64,000 bases of DNA, taken from contig OZ024758.1 of NCBI GenBank assembly GCA_964016885.1, forward strand, positions 15,190,001 through 15,254,000, read 5' to 3'. Under the pieces are notes generated by a model that saw only the letters and a list, made by a program, of their open reading frames with translations, did no database searches and was not told the DNA's origin. The position numbers and the translations under genes were made by a program. Below are positions 3,871 to 47,244 of this stretch, piece by piece. This DNA comes from Eledone cirrhosa (taxonomy: Eukaryota). Position 1 is the first letter of the stretch. Every line of letters starts with the position of its first letter.

Positions 3871-3910
3871 TTTCTGCTGATGAAGGACTAGCGTCCGAAA
3901 CGTTAAGACC
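3871..3910 (+). ncRNA. Minimal hammerhead ribozyme motif (Penelope-like), weak stem I
   Basis: CTGATGA (3877-3883), A, GGAC-tagc-GTCC, GAAA (3897-3900), CGTTA with palindromic AACGTT; a hairpin lies upstream at 3715-3771 and (TA)n flanks the unit. Confidence 0.6.
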
Positions 3911-6039: not shown

Positions 6040-6056
6040 GCAACATAAGGCAATTA

Positions 6057-6117
6057 TTTCATTTACCAGTGGTTTCTTGAAAGCAAAAAAATGTTGCTTT
6101 CAATCATCAGAATGAAA
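6057..6117 (-). ncRNA. Type I hammerhead ribozyme (mirror copy)
   Basis: Reverse complement: TTTCATT-CTGATGA-TTGAAAGCAA-cattttt-TTGCTTTCAA-GAAA-CCACTGG-TA-AATGAAA, with a perfect 10-bp stem II. Confidence 0.85.
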
Positions 6118-6181
6118 AAATCCTGGTGTATTTATTGACATTGGTTTTTAAAATCCAATGTCAATAAATACACCAGGATTT

Positions 6182-6242
6182 TTTCATTCTGATGATTGAA
6201 AGTAAAATTTTTTTGCTTTCAAGAAACCACTGGTAAATGAAA
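6182..6242 (+). ncRNA. Type I hammerhead ribozyme
   Basis: Stem I TTTCATT/AATGAAA; CTGATGA 6189-6195; stem II TTGAAAGT/GCTTTCAA; GAAA 6223-6226; stem III ACC-act-GGT; GUA triplet, predicted cleavage after 6235. Confidence 0.85.
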
Positions 6243-6331
6243 TAATTGCCTTATGTTTGTTTATTACATAACTATTAAGCTCTGTAACCTACATAGAGCA
6301 CTATTTTTTCCTGGACCTTTCTGACGGAATT

Positions 6332-11788: not shown

Positions 11789-11794
<6 letters not shown>

Positions 11795-12311
11795 GAATAA
11801 AATAACAGGAGGCTGGACTGGTGTAAATCCTTGAAAAGTTTATTATACCATGATCATTTCAATGACCGGGTTCCATATGAATCCGGTGATATCATCAGGT
11901 ATTCGAAATATAACAAAGGAATATATAAAAATCCATGGGTCTGAAAATCAGAGACAGAGGACGACTGACAAACTAGCTGTTTTCACCTCGGTCAGTCGCC
12001 CTCTGATTTTCGGACCCATGGATTTTTATATATTCCTTTGTTATATTTCGAATACCTGATGATATCACTGGATTCATACGGAACCCGGTCATTGAAATGA
12101 TCATGGTATAATAAACTTTTCAAGGATTTACACCAGTCCAGCCTCCTGTTATTTTATTCATAATAATTAACTCCGTATTCGCACCACCAACTACACAAAC
12201 GAAGACGGCTGAACTGCACTACGTTGAGTACTTTCCATAATATTGCATCAAGATTGACCATACGGAATGACCAATTCTATCCGGTGGTGAACCAACAAAC
12301 TTAAATAAATG
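11789..12311. mobile_element. Fold-back Penelope-like element with hammerhead-like motif on both arms
   Basis: ~165-bp inverted arms (11789-11953 and 12001-12165); ATAC-CTGATGA(12056-62)-stem II-GAAA(12094-97)-TGATCAT-G-GTAT; unique tail to ~12311; (TA)n flanks. Confidence 0.75.
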
Positions 12312-15450: not shown

Positions 15451-15875
15451 TACGATATTAAACAAATGGAAACTATATTTATATTTATAAAACCATATTT
15501 ATTTTGTTATATATATTTCTGGGATATCATATTAAAAATATGTTATGCCTTCCTCAGACAAAATACAATACATAAGCTGTTTTATAAATAATTAGTGACA
15601 TACCTTGTGATAATGCAACTTCCTTTTAAAAAGTTGATTTTTTTTTTAAAAGGAAGTTGCATTATCACAAGGTATGTCACTAATTATTTATAAAACAGCT
15701 TATGTATTGTATTTTGTCTGAGGAAGGCATAACATATTTTTAATATGATATCCCAGAAATAAATATAGTTTCCATTTGTTTAATATCGTAAACCTACTCC
15801 AGAAACTGTTGAGTGCTTTTATATCAGTTATAAAATATTTACTCGTTGTAACCCAACAATCTTAAATAAAACTTT

Positions 15876-23380: not shown

Positions 23381-26300
23381 GTTCATATCTTCATAGCAAT
23401 TATATACACTATTATTATTTTCAGTATAATATTTTCGACAATTTCCTATTGATCAAACTAATATTGCATACACGACAAACATAGTTAATTTCAGTGGAAT
23501 GTTGTCGACTGAATAATTAAACTTTTCTGTAACAATTGTATCTTAATATTTAACCCGTTCATGTTCAAACCGACCAGAACCGGCCAGAATTCTCTACCTC
23601 TTTCTGTTGAAACTGGCTGTAACTGGTCACTCAAACTGATGTTAAGGTATTGTTCTCAAAATAAATACTTGCAAAATCTCAGATTCGATATTATGTGAGA
23701 TAATTATGCGAGGTAAAGCCTTTACCATGAAAATATAATAGTATATAGAGACTAATGTGAATGGTAAAGGGGTAAGCATTTCGTAAATATAATTAAGGAG
23801 GCACATGGCTTAGTGGTTAGAGCATTGGCCTTGCAATCGAAAGGTTGTGAGTTCAATTCTCAGACTGGGTGATGTGTTGTTTCCTTGAGCAAGACACTTT
23901 ATTTCACATTGCTCCAGTTTTCTCAGCTGTAGAAATGAGATGATAGGACTGGGGTCACTATCATTCCACTGCAAAGTGGTCGTGGAGGTGCCATGGTAAA
24001 AAAGCACCCAGCACTCACTGTAAAGTGGTTGTGGAGGTGCCACGGCAAAAAAGCATCCAGCACTCACTGTAAATGAGGTTGGTGTTAGGAAGGGCATCCA
24101 GCTGTAGAAATCAAGCCAGAATCAGTTCCCGTCCCACCCTTGCAAGCAGGGAAAAGCGGACGTAAAATGATGAGTGATTTAACCCTTTCCTTTATGACCA
24201 ATTCTGTTTAACCCTTTAGCATTTAAACCGGCCATATCCAGCCAATCTCTCACCTCTTTCTGTTCAAACCAGCTGTAACTGGCCACTCATACTGATATTA
24301 AGGTATTGTTCTCAAAATAATTAAATATCAAAATCTCTTAGATTTGATATTATGTAAGATAATTGTGAGATAAAGCCATTACTGTGAAAATATAAAGGTA
24401 AATATAAAAAAATGTAAATGCTAAAGGGTTAAACTTTAAACACAGTGCTATTAATGTAAAATAATGGAGTCATACTGATTTTAAGGTATTGTTCTTAAAA
24501 TAACATGAAAATCTCAGATTCAATATTTTGAGAGATAAAGTGTTTACCGTGAAAATACAATAGTATATATAGAGTAATGTAAATGCTAAAGGGCTAGAAG
24601 ATAAATTTCTGTATTAAGAATGGTGAATGATATATGTTAATTCTTAAAGTCCTCTACCACATAAAACCACATTGACCCTTTAGAAATTAAACCGGCTGTA
24701 TCCGGCCAGAAGTCTCTCACCTCTTTCTGTTGAAACTGGCTGTAATGAGCTGCTTATACTTATGTTAAGGTATTGTTCTCAAAATTTCATAGATTCGATA
24801 TTATCTGAGATAATTATGTGAAATAGTGTTTACTGTGAAAATACAATAGTAAATATAGAGTAATGTAAATGCTAAAGGGTTAACAAGAAATTCTTGACAA
24901 GTATAAAACAGTGCTACTGCTGTATTATATTAAAAATTAACAACTTTTCCCTAATACAGCAAATGTTCACATCAATCTGTCCGCTAGTAAAGCTGCCATA
25001 AACCTTCTAAATCATTACAAGATGTTAAGTTCTTATAGTTTATTCTCAGGTAAGCTACAATGTTGATTTTTATGACCAAATTTGTTCCAACAATAACCCT
25101 TTAGCATTTACATTACTCTATATATACTATTATATTTTCACAGTATTTTCACATAGTATTGAATCTATGGGATTTTGATTTTATTTATTTTGAGAGCAGT
25201 ACCTTAACATCAGTATGTTATGGCTGGTTTGAACAGAAATAGGTGAGAGAATTCTGGCCGGATATGGCTGGGTTAAATATCTCATCTATGACTACATAAT
25301 CTAGTATTTCTGGGCAGGGTGGGGGCAGATAAGGTGTCACTTTAGAGAAATTTGACTGCTATTTATAGCAGATCAAGTGACACTTATAATAGGGCAGGGA
25401 TCTCCAAACCTTTTAAACTATTGACCTCTTCATGTAATCTTTGACCCTTTGCATGTATAAAAATAGATATATAAATCAGTAAACTTTAAATTTAAGGAGT
25501 ATTTCATGAGGTGTGATAGTAAATTTAAGGAATATTTCATGGAGTGATAGTAAATTTAAGGAAGATTTAGTGGGGTGTGATAGATTTAACCCTTTAACAT
25601 TTACATTACTCTATTTATACTATTGTAATTTTGTGGTAAAAGCTTTGTTTTACATAATTATCGCACATAATATCAAATCTGAGATATTGATTTTATTTTG
25701 AGAACAATCAATACCTTAACATCAGTATGAGTTGCCAGTTTGAACAGAAAGAGGTGAGAGTTTTGGCCGGATACAGCCGGTTTAAATGCTAAAGGGTTAA
25801 GGAGTATTCCGTGAGGTGTGATAGTAAATTTAAGGAGTATTTAGTGGGGTGTGATAGTAAATTTAAGGAACAGTTCAGTCAGTTAACAAATGTATGTACT
25901 TAACAACCGAGACATTCTATATCTAAAATATTTCTTACTAACAAATTTGCCAGCACCATAAAAGTGTTGCGTAGATTTCATTGAAAAACTATTCAAAATA
26001 ACTTTATTACTAACCATTTCTGATAAGATGTTAAACTGTGGTGTAGTAGGTAGGGTGGTGGTATCTCCAAAATCTAACAGATTCCACATCATTTGAGCTC
26101 CTCCACAAGATTGGAACATTAGCAGCCCATCTGAGGAGGAAGCCCTAGGAGGTGGGGTGGCTGTTACAGCGAGTGTCACTGACCATTGTCTGCGGGGGGT
26201 GCAGCCCCTTTTCCGCCGTGCCCTAGGCCCAGAGCCCAATCATCCTCCCCCCTTCCCGTTTTTCTGTGACACTAGAGTCCTTTGCCATTCCCTCCTTTTT

Positions 26301-38842: not shown

Positions 38843-39032
38843 TGCTTGCTTGCTTGCTTTTGTGTCTATTTTTCTATGATTGCATGGGTTAGACGGGTCG
38901 TCCAGGCTGGGAGACAAGTCTGGCCAGAGTTGGCCACACCGTACTTTGCTCCGACAAGGATTGTAAATTTAGCAAGGGATTTTAAAGCTGGATGCCCTTC
39001 CTAACACCAACCATAGTTATAGTGTGGAACTG

Positions 39033-40160
39033 GATGGCACCGTTATGAGACGGGACAGGCATGTTGGCTGCACCAAACCCCTCTCACAGCAGGACCTTAG
39101 TTTAGGAGCCCGGTTCTGGATGGCACTGTTACAAGGAGTGACAGGCTAGTTGGCTGTGCCAAACCCATCTCACAGCGGAACCATAGTTTTGGAGGCCGGT
39201 ACTAGATGGCACTGTTACAAGGAGTGACAGGCTAGTTGGCTGTGCCAAACCCATCTCACAGCGGAACCATAGTTTAGGAGCCTGGTACTAGATGGCACTG
39301 TTACAAGGAGTGACAGGCTAGTTGGCTGTGCCAAACCCATCTCACAGCGGAACCATAGTTTAGGAGCCTGGTACTAGATGGCACTGTTACAAGGAGTGAC
39401 AGGCTAGTTGGCTGTGCCAAACCCATCTCACAGCGGAACCATAGTTTGGGAGCCTGGTACTAGATGGCACTGTTACAAGGAGTGACAGGCTAGTTGGCTG
39501 TGCCAAACCCATCTCACAGCGGAACCATAGTTTTGGAGGCCGGTACTAGATGGCACTGTTACAAGGAGTGACAGGCTAGTTGGCTGTGCCAAACCCATCT
39601 CACAGCGGAACCATAGTTTAGGAGCCTGGTACTAGATGGCACTGTTACAAGGAGTGACAGGCTAGTTGGCTGTGCCAAACCCATCTCACAGCGGAACCAT
39701 AGTTTAGGAGCCTGGTACTAGATGGCACTGTTACAAGGAGTGACAGGCTAGTTGGCTGTGCCAAACCCATCTCACAGCGGAACCATAGTTTGGGAGCCTG
39801 GTACTAGATGGCACTGTTACAAGGAGTGACAGGCTAGTTGGCTGTGCCAAACCCATCTCACAGCGGAACCATAGTTTTGGAGGCCGGTACTAGATGGCAC
39901 TGTTACAAGGAGTGACAGGCTAGTTGGCTGTGCCAAACCCATCTCACAGCGGAACGTTAGTTTTGGAGCCTGGTACTAGATGGCACTGTTACAAGGAGTG
40001 ACAGGCTAGTTGGCTGTGCCAAACCCATCTCACAGCAGAACGTTAGTTTTGGAGCCTGGTACTAGATGGCACTGTTACAAGGAGTGACAGGCTAGTAGCC
40101 TGGTACTGGATGGCACTGTTACAAGGAGTGACAGGCTAGTAGCCTGGTACTGGATGGCAA
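39033..40160. repeat. 86-bp minisatellite, ~13 copies, adjoining an RTE/SINE-type 3' UTR (38870-39030)
   Basis: GATGGCACTGTTACAAGGAGTGACAGGCTAG... at 39119, 39205, 39291, 39377 and onward, with an 86-bp period. Confidence 0.95.
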
Positions 40161-44405: not shown

Positions 44406-44632
44406 TAGAAGTGGCTACACAACAGTTAGTTCACCATAGCAAGAACAATTGTTTCACCTTAGCGGATCCTCAGCTCGTAATGGACGTATAACCATGTCCA
44501 TTACGAGCTGAGGATCTGCTAAGGTGAAACAATTGTTCTCGATATGGTGAACTAACTGTTGTGTAACCACTTCTACCTAACTCGTCCCATGGACTGAGTG
44601 CTCTACCACTACGGATATTACCTTCCAGTGTT
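44406..44632. mobile_element. Fold-back Penelope-like element with hammerheads on both strands
   Basis: Arms 44406-44486 and 44495-44575, tail to ~44632, between (TA)n and (CT)n/(TA)n. Confidence 0.8.
44504..44541 (+). ncRNA. Minimal type I hammerhead ribozyme (mirror copy at 44440-44477 on the - strand)
   Basis: CGAG-CTGAGGA(44508-14)-TCTgctaaGGT-GAA-ACAATTGT-T-CTCG: stem I CGAG/CTCG, palindromic stem III, GUU triplet. Confidence 0.8.
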
Positions 44633-44806: not shown

Positions 44807-45599
44807 CAAATTTTAAGCTGGCCCCCTCCAATTTTATGTTTTTCATTTTCATAGCTAATTTATAAGTGAATAGAAATATTAGCTGCCTGCTATTGAGACC
44901 AGGCAACAGTTTTGGCTATCACCGTTTAGCGTCCATTTTTCTATGCTTGCATATCTGTGGCCTAAAACACTGTTATGATGCCTGACACTTACCATAGTTA
45001 ATACAGCTTAAATGATGGATTGGGTTTTTATATAAAATGTTGTGGTTCACCAGTCTAGTGGCTTCTTGTTCTAATGTTTGTCGTGTGATGTGTCTAAGGC
45101 CAGGCTGAAAGATTTTAGTCCAACAGTAATCTGATGTTGACAAAGATTTAAGGACATTATTGATGGATGGTGTTTGTCCATAAATGTATGTATATAAAGT
45201 ATAGTGTGTGTGTGTGTGTGTGTGTACTATATGTATATATAGTATTATGTTAGGATTCTCAATTTTTAGAGACATAGGACATTTTAGCTATGATATATTA
45301 TGGGAAGGAATGGGGGGAAAGTTTGATGTTTATGGACTTGGTGTCTGACGCTCTACCTATACTACCATGCTTTGCGGCATAGAATTACGGCCCTTCTGAG
45401 TTCAAATCCCGCCAAGGTTAGTTTTGCCTATCATCCTTATGAAATCAATAAAATAAAGTACCAGTAATGCACTGGGATTGATTTAATTGATTTCCCCCTT
45501 TCCCCAAAATTGCTGGCCTTGTGCCTAAATCAGAAACCATTATTGATAGATGGTATTTGTCTATAGATGTATGTATTATATACTATATCTATCTATTTA

Positions 45600-45850: not shown

Positions 45851-45934
45851 GTAGGGTCCCATTTCTGGGTTAAAGGCACCAGTTAAGGTATTGTCAGCCA
45901 TTGAAAAGAAATATATACTATATATATATATAAC

Positions 45935-46322
45935 AAAATAAAGATCCGAAGGCATGGTATAAATTTAAACAACTGTTGAAGGCATGGTATAAATTTCCAA
46001 TCATTTTAATCATGACACATGTTTCAATAAGGGATAGATCGATCGTGTGGTCATGATCTCTGATCTCTGGAATTGGAGATATACAAAAGCGTGGAGAACT
46101 GAGATAAGTGATAATCAATCATGACCACACGATCGATCTATCTCTTATTGAAACATGTCGTGATTAAAATGATTGGAAATTTATACCATGCCTTCGGATC
46201 TTTATTTTTTTATACAAATACTCCGTTTTACATCATCTAGCTGTTCTCTTAAATGGAATTGGAGAACTTAATATTGCTAACAAAAGTTTATTGGACCGTA
46301 TGACACAACCAATAATACACCT
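45935..46322. mobile_element. Fold-back element with degenerate hammerhead
   Basis: Arms ~45935-46057 and 46118-46209; CTGAGA(46099)-long stem II-GAAACATGTC (46150-59); tail shares ACTCCGT and TT(G)GACC(G/A)TA with the 12.2-kb tail. Confidence 0.6.
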
Positions 46323-46472
46323 GTAGTAGTAGTAGTAGTGGTAGTAGTAATTATAAGTTGAGCCAACTTATGCAGCTTCATATGCAAATGAGATTAATCA
46401 CCTCATTTACACAGACGAGAAAAGTATATATTCTCAGCTGTCTTCTAGTCCGAGCAGTCGCAAGTGGCGGGA

Positions 46473-46525
46473 GGGACCGTCCTGACGAAGGCCAGTTAAG
46501 CCTGAAATGCATAGACGGTTGTCCC
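46473..46525 (+). ncRNA. Compact type I hammerhead ribozyme (retrozyme/PLE-like)
   Basis: ACCGTC-CTGACGA(46482-88)-AGGC-cagttaa-GCCT-GAA-ATGCAT-A-GACGGT; 6-bp stem I extendable to GGGA/TCCC with a bulge; AUA triplet, predicted cleavage after 46513. Confidence 0.88.
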
Positions 46526-46632
46526 CCTTGCTTCTGCTGGACATCACCAGAGGGCGTTAGCCCCCCTGGTGTTTGCCTAGCTACGGATTCCTAAAACTGT
46601 ATTTCTTTGGAGATTCAAAATATGTATATATG

Positions 46633-46669
<37 letters not shown>

Positions 46670-47244
46670 GTATATATATGTTAGGATTCTCAATTTTTAC
46701 AGACACAGGACCTGATATATTATGGGAGAGAAGGAATGGCGGTAAGCTTGGTATTTATACTCTCTTCAAGGTCTTAGTAAAACTGCTCTAATTGATGTGT
46801 TTGCTCAAGAATCTACTAGTGTACCATGGCAACTGTTCAAGTGAGATGCGGTGAATTAACTCCAGGGGAAATATATGTATGAAGGCTGAGGGAGTTAGCA
46901 AGACTATCCATTGTAACAGTTGTTTAAATATCAACAGATTTCTTCTGAATTGAAGCTTTACACCATTGAATTCTTTCACTGTTAAAGACATCGCATTCTA
47001 GACATTCTAAGCAGTTCAAAATAATCAGACATCATCATCATCGTCATCATCATCATCATCATCATTGCCATTATCATCATTGTCACCACCGTTACCATCA
47101 GCATCACCACCATCAGCATCACCACCATCAGCATCACCACCATCAGCATCACCACCATCAGCATTGCCACCATCACGGCCGTTGCCATCACGACCGTTGC
47201 CATTTACATTACTCTATATATACTATTGTATTTTTACAATAAAG

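What the first reader, a model, noticed from the sequence alone, without database searches (positions are those of the whole stretch)
46445..46612. Stand-alone GC-rich structured RNA unit with an intact hammerhead (retrozyme-like monomer)
This ~165-nt GC-rich island is not palindromic. It holds the cleanest ribozyme in the window: stem I ACCGUC/GACGGU extendable across a UUG bulge, stem II AGGC/GCCU with a 7-nt loop, and palindromic AUGCAU. A second strong hairpin follows (CACCAG-aGGGC-gtta-GCCC-cc-CTGGTG, ~46546-46572). A bulged stem I with loop II is the arrangement that supports tertiary contacts in efficient natural type I hammerheads (established). The size fits animal non-LTR retrozyme monomers, which yield small circular RNAs when tandem (inference; only one unit is present here).
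Basis: partly seen in the sequence, partly recalled or inferred. Interest (0 to 1): 0.75.

Follow-up and report, generated by a model that had tools for sequence, protein, structure and literature searches.

The report
Solo copy of animal retrozyme repeat
This is a real self-cutting hammerhead RNA motif, but it sits inside one stranded, slightly clipped copy of a larger and very abundant repeat of a known kind (an animal retrozyme), whose front end looks like a small-nuclear-RNA promoter.

Summary
The type I hammerhead is real: core, stems I and II, palindromic AUGCAU, predicted cut after 46513; a strict scan finds it once here and never in 100 shuffles. The 165-nt unit is wrong. Public runs show family homology over the whole stretch laid (46352-46614) in three coded organisms, with 3022 contigs in one run. 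One contig joins the 3' end back to the 5' end across 62 nt, implying a tandem unit of about 325 nt. Three contigs show Penelope-like inverted joints, and a sister copy changes three of four stem II pairs compensatorily. The window holds one solo copy, clipped in its AT-rich linker, between microsatellites. Helix III is one pair plus a palindromic tetraloop, the type that cuts well only as a dimer, so this copy is probably a dead end and a monomer assay could mislead. The AT-rich front carries an exact octamer, a PSE-like box and a TATA box, with a second octamer-like site after the second hairpin: possibly an internal snRNA-type promoter as reported for newt satellite 2 (untested). Verdict: new member of the non-LTR retrozymes; expression and circles not shown.

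The parts
46354..46635 (+). Solo copy of the repeat family, about 280 nt of a unit of about 325 nt; ends approximate
   Evidence: Family reads cover 46352-46614 and continue with other letters before 46354 (49 contigs in X1, 1 in X6); X1 loose end behind 46614 (13 contigs) matches the window at 15 of 20 AT-rich positions to 46634, by eye
46382..46389 (+). Exact octamer motif ATGCAAAT
   Evidence: One of 4 octamer sites in 64 kb; 191 of 20000 shuffles of 46352-46452 hold one; region kept in organism C contigs 11-14. Motif name recalled
46398..46415 (+). PSE-like box (hypothesis)
   Evidence: Position between octamer and TATA; likeness to vertebrate PSE is recalled, not tested; part of it also pairs with 46387-46392 in the fold
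46425..46431 (+). TATA-like box
   Evidence: Sequence; octamer plus TATA 30-55 nt downstream in 2 of 20000 shuffles, a test framed after seeing it; an A/T box at about the same distance in one organism C loose end
46448..46543 (+). GC-rich rod that extends stem I and carries the hammerhead at its tip
   Evidence: MFE and centroid; z -3.4, 0 of 200 shuffles; the one-base bulge at 46452 is absent in 616 of 645 depth units in X1
46476..46481 (+). Hammerhead stem I, 5' strand
46482..46488 (+). Catalytic core, first box (C3-A9); position 7 is 46486
   Evidence: Sequence; in X1 other letters at C3 41 of 53358 and at A6 106 of 59660, against about 1200 of 57062 at the free position 7
46489..46503 (+). 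Stem II (4 bp, closed by A10.1-U11.1) and 7-nt loop II
   Evidence: an organism C contig has GAAC/GUUC here, 3 of 4 pairs changed on both sides (loose end before 46504)
46504..46513 (+). Core second box, palindromic helix III 46507-46512 and cleavage base A46513
   Evidence: Helix III probability 0 in the monomer model; self-duplex of the 6-mer -4.7 kcal/mol; two-copy cofold gives the double hammerhead
46514..46519 (+). Hammerhead stem I, 3' strand; first base after the predicted cut
46545..46571 (+). Second hairpin
   Evidence: two organism C contigs have a different top with complementary arms at the same place (loose ends behind 46543 and 46550)
46571..46578 (-). Second, reverse octamer-like site: 6 of 8 here, 7 of 8 in most family copies, 8 of 8 in one organism C contig
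   Evidence: 46577 reads A in 2512 of 2529 depth units in X1 and 98 of 101 reads in X7; X6 loose end behind 46550
46323..46349 (.). (GTA)n microsatellite at the left border; not part of the family
   Evidence: family loose ends differ here
46620..46679 (.). (TA)n tract into which the copy's 3' end fades

Best explanation
A solo, end-clipped insertion of an abundant animal non-LTR retrozyme family with a unit of about 325 nt. SHOWN: the hammerhead motif, a many-copy non-coding family in three coded organisms, truncated copies in other flanks, one head-to-tail contig, three inverted joints. INFERRED working cycle: head-to-tail arrays are transcribed into multimers, probably from the promoter-like front of each unit; neighbouring hammerheads pair their AUGCAU palindromes into a double hammerhead and each cuts after the base equal to A46513; the released unit-length RNA (5'-OH, 2',3'-cyclic phosphate) is closed into a circle by a host RtcB-type ligase; a Penelope-like element's reverse transcriptase and GIY-YIG nuclease copy circle or multimer into AT-rich or microsatellite DNA, giving truncated and sometimes inverted insertions. 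The window's copy has its ribozyme intact in the middle rather than split at the cut site, so its template was a circle, a multimer or uncut RNA, not a cut linear monomer. With one ribozyme and about 45 nt missing it cannot release a monomer by itself and is most likely a dead end.
For: Motif beyond chance. 3022 of 16,285,364 contigs laid in X1 with identities spread 619/956/998/449 over the four bands, 2 of 8,254,286 in X4, 8 of 13,709,327 in X6, 1265 of 12,467,656 reads in X7. X4 record 9: letters 4-30 lie on 46588-46614 and 93-148 on 46352-46407, same strand, 62 letters between: 263+62 = 325; retrozyme repeats are 150-450 bp, 350-390 in mussel, 330-350 in axolotl. GC 0.475 over 46352-46614 against '<50%' for the class. 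Helix I 6 bp, helix II 4 bp, short palindromic helix III is the 'canonical' metazoan build, unlike PLE minimal motifs with 7-8 bp helix II and a bulged base (PMC4209133). Compensated stem II in a sister copy; core positions vary less than position 7 and loop II. Opposite-strand joints in 1 X4 and 2 X1 contigs match the inverted 5'-truncated copies typical of PLE insertions. No Pfam family above its cut-off in 170 of 170 frames scanned, the three overlapping the element included. Solo monomers of retrozyme families are described as dispersed offspring. Two-copy cofold gives the double-hammerhead geometry.
Against: The tandem unit rests on 1 of the 20 records shown (3041 not shown), with 27 letters on its shorter side, under the tool's 31-letter bridging rule; the joint table lists no go-back joint in any of the 4 runs. 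No array, RNA, circle or cleavage was seen. No target-site duplication found (best shared word 6 nt). The dimer's energy gain (-3.7 kcal/mol) is not special: 58 of 60 shuffled rods gain as much or more. No Rfam hammerhead match. Reads are picked by likeness to the window, which inflates apparent conservation; summed contig depth is no copy number. 8 of 9 predicted Xenopus retrozyme dimers did not cleave in vitro. No partner PLE was found in the window.
Confidence: 0.72

Rival explanations
1. The unit is the pseudo-LTR, or an internally deleted stump, of a Penelope-like element. It is copied as ordinary PLE RNA, partial tandems arise from the PLE insertion mechanism, and there is no circular RNA phase. 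The promoter-like boxes are the pLTR's Pol II promoter.
For: Inverted joints; four palindromic hammerhead stumps and one minimal hammerhead elsewhere in the window show PLE-type activity in this genome; 24 of 57 Xenopus retrozyme families match known elements, 21 of those 22 elements being PLEs, at their termini; in the anole PLE, ribozyme cleavage was not needed for insertion in vitro.
Against: Canonical rather than minimal hammerhead; the 3' end returns to the 5' end after 62 nt with no coding sequence; the ATG inside the ribozyme closes after 17 codons; no RT or GIY-YIG trace in the window.
Confidence: 0.17
2. A short Pol III (U6/H1-type) gene-like repeat: transcription starts near 46453, makes a roughly 190-nt rod-plus-hairpin RNA ending at a T run in the AT-rich linker, cleaves only in trans, and the repeat spreads mainly as satellite DNA or by rare read-through.
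For: Octamer, PSE-like box and TATA in the order and spacing of type 3 promoters (PSE at -70 to -40, TATA selects Pol III in humans; compact 84-bp H1 core with octamer, PSE, TATA); T4 runs in family loose ends.
Against: The rod's outer pairs begin at 46448, upstream of that start, and are kept in organisms A and C; the upstream segment itself folds better than shuffles (z -3.1); the host's PSE consensus is unknown.
Confidence: 0.06
3. One reading: a self-contained 165-nt monomer whose ribozyme cuts efficiently alone.
For: Stems I and II are pre-formed with probability near 0.98; a U follows the sixth stem I pair and loop II runs C...A, as recalled for the Schistosoma ribozyme (recalled, not tested).
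Against: Family homology extends about 90 nt further upstream and beyond 46612; helix III absent in the monomer; one-pair helix III motifs cut poorly as monomers.
Confidence: 0.03
4. A host-domesticated single-locus ribozyme (like RECK or Clec2 hammerheads), or a chance fold.
For: Single copy within the window; intact core.
Against: Thousands of related contigs elsewhere, and this copy carries private changes against the family at 46452, 46465, 46468, 46577 and 46587; 0 of 100 shuffles give the motif.
Confidence: 0.02

Closest known systems
Metazoan non-LTR retrozymes (coral 220-245 nt, mussel 350-390 nt, axolotl 331/353 nt; Cervera and de la Pena 2020, PMC7229834)
   Same: Non-coding repeat in the 150-450 bp range with one canonical type I hammerhead per unit, GC under 50%, many copies, head-to-tail junction, solo copies
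   Different: Arrays, transcripts and circles not shown here; no TSD found; the unit folds as a GC rod plus local hairpins rather than one long self-paired rod; promoter-like boxes are not described in the sections read
Newt satellite 2 / axolotl HHR_Amex1
   Same: About 330-nt unit; helix III of one pair with a palindromic tetraloop, dimer-dependent; internal snRNA-type promoter reported for the newt repeat (second-hand via PMC2220036)
   Different: Invertebrate-looking host (inference); a TATA box follows the PSE-like box here, whereas the newt promoter is reported as Pol II; sequence relation not tested
Penelope-like element pLTR hammerheads (PMC4209133) and PLE inverted 5'-truncated insertions (10.1101/2021.04.23.441226)
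   Same: Type I, palindromic helix III, inverted joints, microsatellite-bordered insertion without clear TSD
   Different: Helix II is 4 bp with no extra base between 9 and 10.1, helix I is long and well closed; no ORF; closing pair A10.1-U11.1 rather than the conserved G-C
Schistosoma Sm-alpha hammerhead repeats
   Same: Tandem repeat with canonical type I ribozyme and an internal promoter (Pol III)
   Different: No tRNA-derived part detected in this unit; Rfam hammerhead models not matched

Membership tests
Type I hammerhead ribozyme | Conserved core boxes and NUH site around a three-way junction, open at stem I | tested here: met
   A10.1-U11.1 instead of the commoner G-C
Type I hammerhead ribozyme | Covariation of stems among relatives | tested here: met
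   One organism C contig changes 3 of 4 stem II pairs on both sides; the same contig looks decayed in stem I and at C3; 46491 G>A and 46501 C>T both occur but phase not shown
Type I hammerhead ribozyme | Match to an Rfam hammerhead model | tested here: not met
   No hit at gathering score or at E<=10
Type I hammerhead ribozyme | Self-cleavage; loop I-loop II tertiary contact | not testable with these tools
   Needs an assay
Non-LTR retrozyme | Unit of 150-450 bp with one canonical type I hammerhead | tested here: met
   About 325 nt from X4 record 9; at least 263 nt directly
Non-LTR retrozyme | Tandem head-to-tail arrays with a ribozyme in consecutive units | tested here: inconclusive
   One junction contig with 27 letters on one side; no record with two ribozymes among the 20 shown; this locus itself is solo
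Non-LTR retrozyme | Many genomic copies | tested here: met
   3022 contigs of varied identity in X1; truncated copies in other flanks (records 1 and 7; X7 loose end before 46375)
Non-LTR retrozyme | Non-coding, no LTR/PBS/PPT, GC under 50% | tested here: met
   No Pfam hit in overlapping frames; no flanking direct repeat of the unit; GC 0.475. PBS and PPT were not searched as such
Non-LTR retrozyme | TSD longer than 4 bp, when present | tested here: inconclusive
   None evident; borders are microsatellites
Non-LTR retrozyme | Expressed as linear and circular monomer RNA | not testable with these tools
   Only DNA or unlabelled runs could be laid
Autonomous Penelope-like element | RT and GIY-YIG reading frame next to the pLTR | tested here: not met
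   0 of 170 frames pass a Pfam cut-off; frames under 55 aa or of low complexity were left out
Autonomous Penelope-like element | Inverted, 5'-truncated insertion structures in the family | tested here: met
   3 opposite-strand joints; not at this locus
SNAPc-dependent (snRNA-type) promoter | Octamer enhancer site, near -250 to -170 or compact | tested here: met
   Exact octamer 46382-46389; second site would lie about 205 nt upstream of 46453 in an array
SNAPc-dependent (snRNA-type) promoter | PSE matching the host's snRNA consensus at -70 to -40 | not testable with these tools
   No host snRNA gene in the window, no genome held, no mollusc PSE found in listings
SNAPc-dependent (snRNA-type) promoter | Mapped start site and polymerase | not testable with these tools
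   Needs RACE and inhibitor tests

The most novel reading that the evidence does not exclude
Each unit carries its own SNAPc-type promoter (octamer, PSE, TATA, plus a distal octamer supplied by the previous unit of the array), so the retrozyme hijacks the snRNA transcription machinery and regenerates the promoter inside the circle it makes. Shared with newt satellite 2, this would point to a general reason why animal retrozyme RNAs are abundant in all tissues while other retroelements are silenced, and why only arrays, not solo copies like this one, are fully active.
Probability: 0.25. Interest if true: 0.65.

Novelty: new member of a known kind. Interest (0 to 1): 0.38.

Why it matters
As a retrozyme family it adds one more host lineage and a well-defined unit to a class already known from corals to amphibians; that is modest. 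The added value is anatomical: ribozyme rod, second hairpin and promoter-like boxes are all traceable across three organisms, and inverted joints tie the family to Penelope-type insertion. If the promoter reading holds, it makes an open question directly testable: how these circles reach high levels in every tissue examined (PMC7229834).

Tried and rejected
Rfam: only a tRNA-like SINE head at gathering score; no hammerhead at E<=10; weak snoRNA and miRNA hits are far below their cut-offs and rejected. Pattern scans: 0 hits in metagenome contigs, 0 and then 3 in viral contigs; the 3 share only the core words (best E 0.003) and were rejected as non-members. No second copy or tandem neighbour of the unit in the window; the likeness of 46397-46423 to a SINE segment has E 0.29-3.6 and was rejected. 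TSD search negative. Dimer energy control did not support a special gain. The apparent 4-nt CTAG repeat at 46445 and 46577 is not a TSD: both sites differ in family copies and lie inside the unit. Earlier-finding look-ups by place and by sequence were blank (words). Supplement of PMC7229834 could not be read and may hold mollusc retrozyme sequences that bear on novelty. Passages searched in PMC6466107, PMC5680766 and PMC7229834 gave nothing on retrozyme promoters.

Full report
1. What is there. The window is AT-rich, microsatellite-dense and full of short interspersed repeats, with no Pfam family above its cut-off in 170 of 170 stop-free frames of 55 aa or more that passed a complexity filter. 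It reads as non-coding animal DNA; a likeness to octopus genomes is my recall and was not tested. At 46476-46519 on the + strand lies a complete type I hammerhead: stem I of six Watson-Crick pairs, the two core boxes, stem II of four pairs with a 7-nt loop, palindromic AUGCAU, and a predicted cut after A46513. A strict scan finds 1 such motif in the window and 0 in each of 100 shuffles. Stems I and II have mean pair probabilities of 0.97-0.99 in all six contexts folded. Stem I extends into a rod, 46448-46543 (z -3.4), followed by a hairpin at 46545-46571 (z -4.3). Rfam's hammerhead models do not match it even at E<=10; the short helix III is my guess at the reason.

2. The unit is larger than the island. 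Six of nine listed public runs hold part of 46380-46620. Four were laid on 46352-46618 at 80% likeness. X1 (organism A) gave 3022 of 16,285,364 contigs, spread over all identity bands; X4 (organism B) 2 of 8,254,286; X6 (organism C) 8 of 13,709,327; X7 (organism A, raw reads) 1265 of 12,467,656. All 30 bins are covered in X1 and X7. Loose ends before 46354 differ from the window and agree between X1 (49 contigs) and X6 (1), so the window's copy is clipped there. Behind 46614 the X1 loose end (13 contigs) follows the window for about 20 AT-rich bases (15 alike, by eye) and the window then turns into (TA)n. X4 record 9, 148 letters, lies on 46588-46614 with letters 4-30 and on 46352-46407 with letters 93-148, both on +: a head-to-tail junction with 62 letters between, hence a unit of about 325 nt. 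This is one record of the 20 shown (3041 not shown), its shorter side is 27 letters against the tool's 31-letter rule, and the joint table lists no go-back joint, not even for this record; so the tandem unit is likely, not proven. Other copies are truncated and sit in other flanks (X1 records 1 and 7; 87 X7 reads before 46375). Three contigs change strand inside the unit (46459/46574 in X4; 46472/46530 and 46507/46579 in X1). Summed depth is no copy number; many copies is an inference from the number and spread of contigs.

3. Signs of selection on structure. In X1 other letters reach 41 of 53358 depth units at C3 and 106 of 59660 at A6, against about 1200 of 57062 at the free position 7 (which is also a CpG) and 25661 of 97556 at 46497 in loop II; laid records are chosen by likeness, which inflates conservation. 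One organism C contig has stem II GAAC/GUUC around a nearly identical loop: three of four pairs changed on both sides. The same contig looks decayed at C3 and in the 5' strand of stem I. Two organism C contigs replace the top of the second hairpin with other letters whose arms are still complementary (8 of 10 pairs in record 17 if its last three aligned letters equal the window's). The window's copy differs from most family copies at 46452, 46465, 46468, 46577 and 46587, so it is an ageing copy; the base at 46452 is a one-base bulge that most copies lack.

4. How the ribozyme would work. Helix III is one pair capped by the palindromic tetraloop UGCA. It does not form in the monomer model (partly a model rule), while cofolding two copies gives the double hammerhead with a 6-bp intermolecular helix III and exchanged stem I strands, 3.7 kcal/mol below two monomers. 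That gain is not special against shuffles (58 of 60 gain as much); only the geometry is informative. The literature describes this build as dimer-dependent (PMC4209133), with 6% monomer cleavage in an hour for axolotl HHR_Amex1 (PMC7229834). So this solo copy is expected to cut poorly and cannot release a unit-length RNA.

5. The AT-rich front. 46352-46444 holds an exact octamer (46382-46389), one of 4 in the window and the only one with a TATA-like box 30-55 nt downstream; 191 of 20000 shuffles of the segment hold an octamer and 2 hold both (the test was framed after seeing the motifs). Between them, 46398-46415 resembles a vertebrate PSE by recall. Organism C contigs keep the octamer region and then diverge after 46399, keeping seven letters of the box. 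A second, reverse octamer-like site follows the second hairpin (7 of 8 in most copies, 8 of 8 in one organism C contig) and in an array would lie about 205 nt upstream of 46453, inside the -250 to -170 range of distal elements (PMC9652321). Newt satellite 2 is reported to have an internal snRNA promoter used by Pol II (PMC2220036, second-hand; that it has an octamer and PSE is recalled). Against: the host PSE is unknown; the segment also folds well (z -3.1), which could explain conservation; a TATA box would mean Pol III in humans, and T4 runs in the family would hinder Pol III read-through, although the compact H1 promoter recruits both polymerases (PMC3499247; PMC11340601).

6. Mechanism, shown and inferred. 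Shown: motif, fold, multi-copy family, larger unit, truncations, inversions. Inferred from known families: array transcription, dimer cleavage, RtcB circularisation (PMC7229834), and copying by a PLE enzyme, which prefers AT-rich targets (PMC11167929) and leaves inverted 5'-truncated copies and often no visible TSD at microsatellites (10.1101/2021.04.23.441226). The intact mid-copy ribozyme excludes a cut linear monomer as template. Four palindromic hammerhead stumps and a minimal hammerhead in the same window suggest PLE activity in this genome, but none shares sequence with this unit.

7. Comparison and novelty. It works like, and most likely is, a non-LTR retrozyme; membership is met for unit size, ribozyme type, copy number and non-coding nature, inconclusive for arrays and TSD, untested for circles. 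Solo monomers and a PLE origin are already described (10.64898/2026.07.22.740005). The top listings of five literature searches showed no paper on this family or on snRNA-type promoters in invertebrate retrozymes; only listings were seen, the library is partial, and the supplement of PMC7229834 was unreadable. Hammerheads in a cephalopod genome are already counted (235 in giant squid, PMC6962438).

8. What I saw of each paper. 10.64898/2026.07.22.740005: parts 1-3 of 5. PMC7229834: parts 2-4 of 6 and passages. PMC4209133: parts 1-2 of 4. Passages only: PMC6466107, PMC9652321, PMC5460494, PMC2220036, PMC6962438, PMC11167929, PMC5680766, PMC6155905, PMC11340601, PMC3499247, 10.1101/2021.04.23.441226. 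Coats et al. 1994: not read.

9. Verdict. Real ribozyme motif, wrong unit, known class. New member of a known kind; interest 0.38, mostly for the testable promoter lead (probability 0.25, interest 0.65 if true).

Noticed in passing
window 6042-6257: 97% palindrome with a hammerhead in each arm (cores at 6110 on -, 6189 on +), long stem II and 4-bp stem III; looks like an inverted PLE stump
   Followed up: partly
window 11789-12165, 15508-15767, 44406-44575: Three more palindromes, each with a hammerhead-like core in both arms (11898/12056, 15557/15718, 44473/44508), all of different sequence
   Followed up: partly
window 3877-3904: Minimal PLE-type hammerhead on + with an extra base before stem II and palindromic helix III; stem I poor
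   Followed up: no
window 45923-46220: Imperfect 298-nt palindrome ending about 130 nt upstream of the element; no hammerhead core in the loose scan; shares 22 AT-rich bases with 15495-15516
   Followed up: partly
window 46672-46758 and 45246-45333: A short repeat (76% over 92 columns) that starts right after a (TA)n tract at both places and forms the element's right flank
   Followed up: no
window 23804-23867: Only Rfam hit at gathering score (tRNA, 29.9 bits); it is the head of a multi-copy SINE-like repeat also at about 5005, 37830, 44380 and 52890
   Followed up: no
window 39009-40102: Minisatellite with a period of 86 nt, about 12 copies, GC-rich against its surroundings
   Followed up: no
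run X6, records 12 and 13: Organism C contigs that share 46352-46399, octamer included, and then run on unlike for up to 196 nt: possibly a sister family or another gene using the same promoter-like block
   Followed up: no
L002 2001-2038 (-): Viral contig with hammerhead core words and a partial stem II; not a member of this family, perhaps an unrelated motif
   Followed up: no
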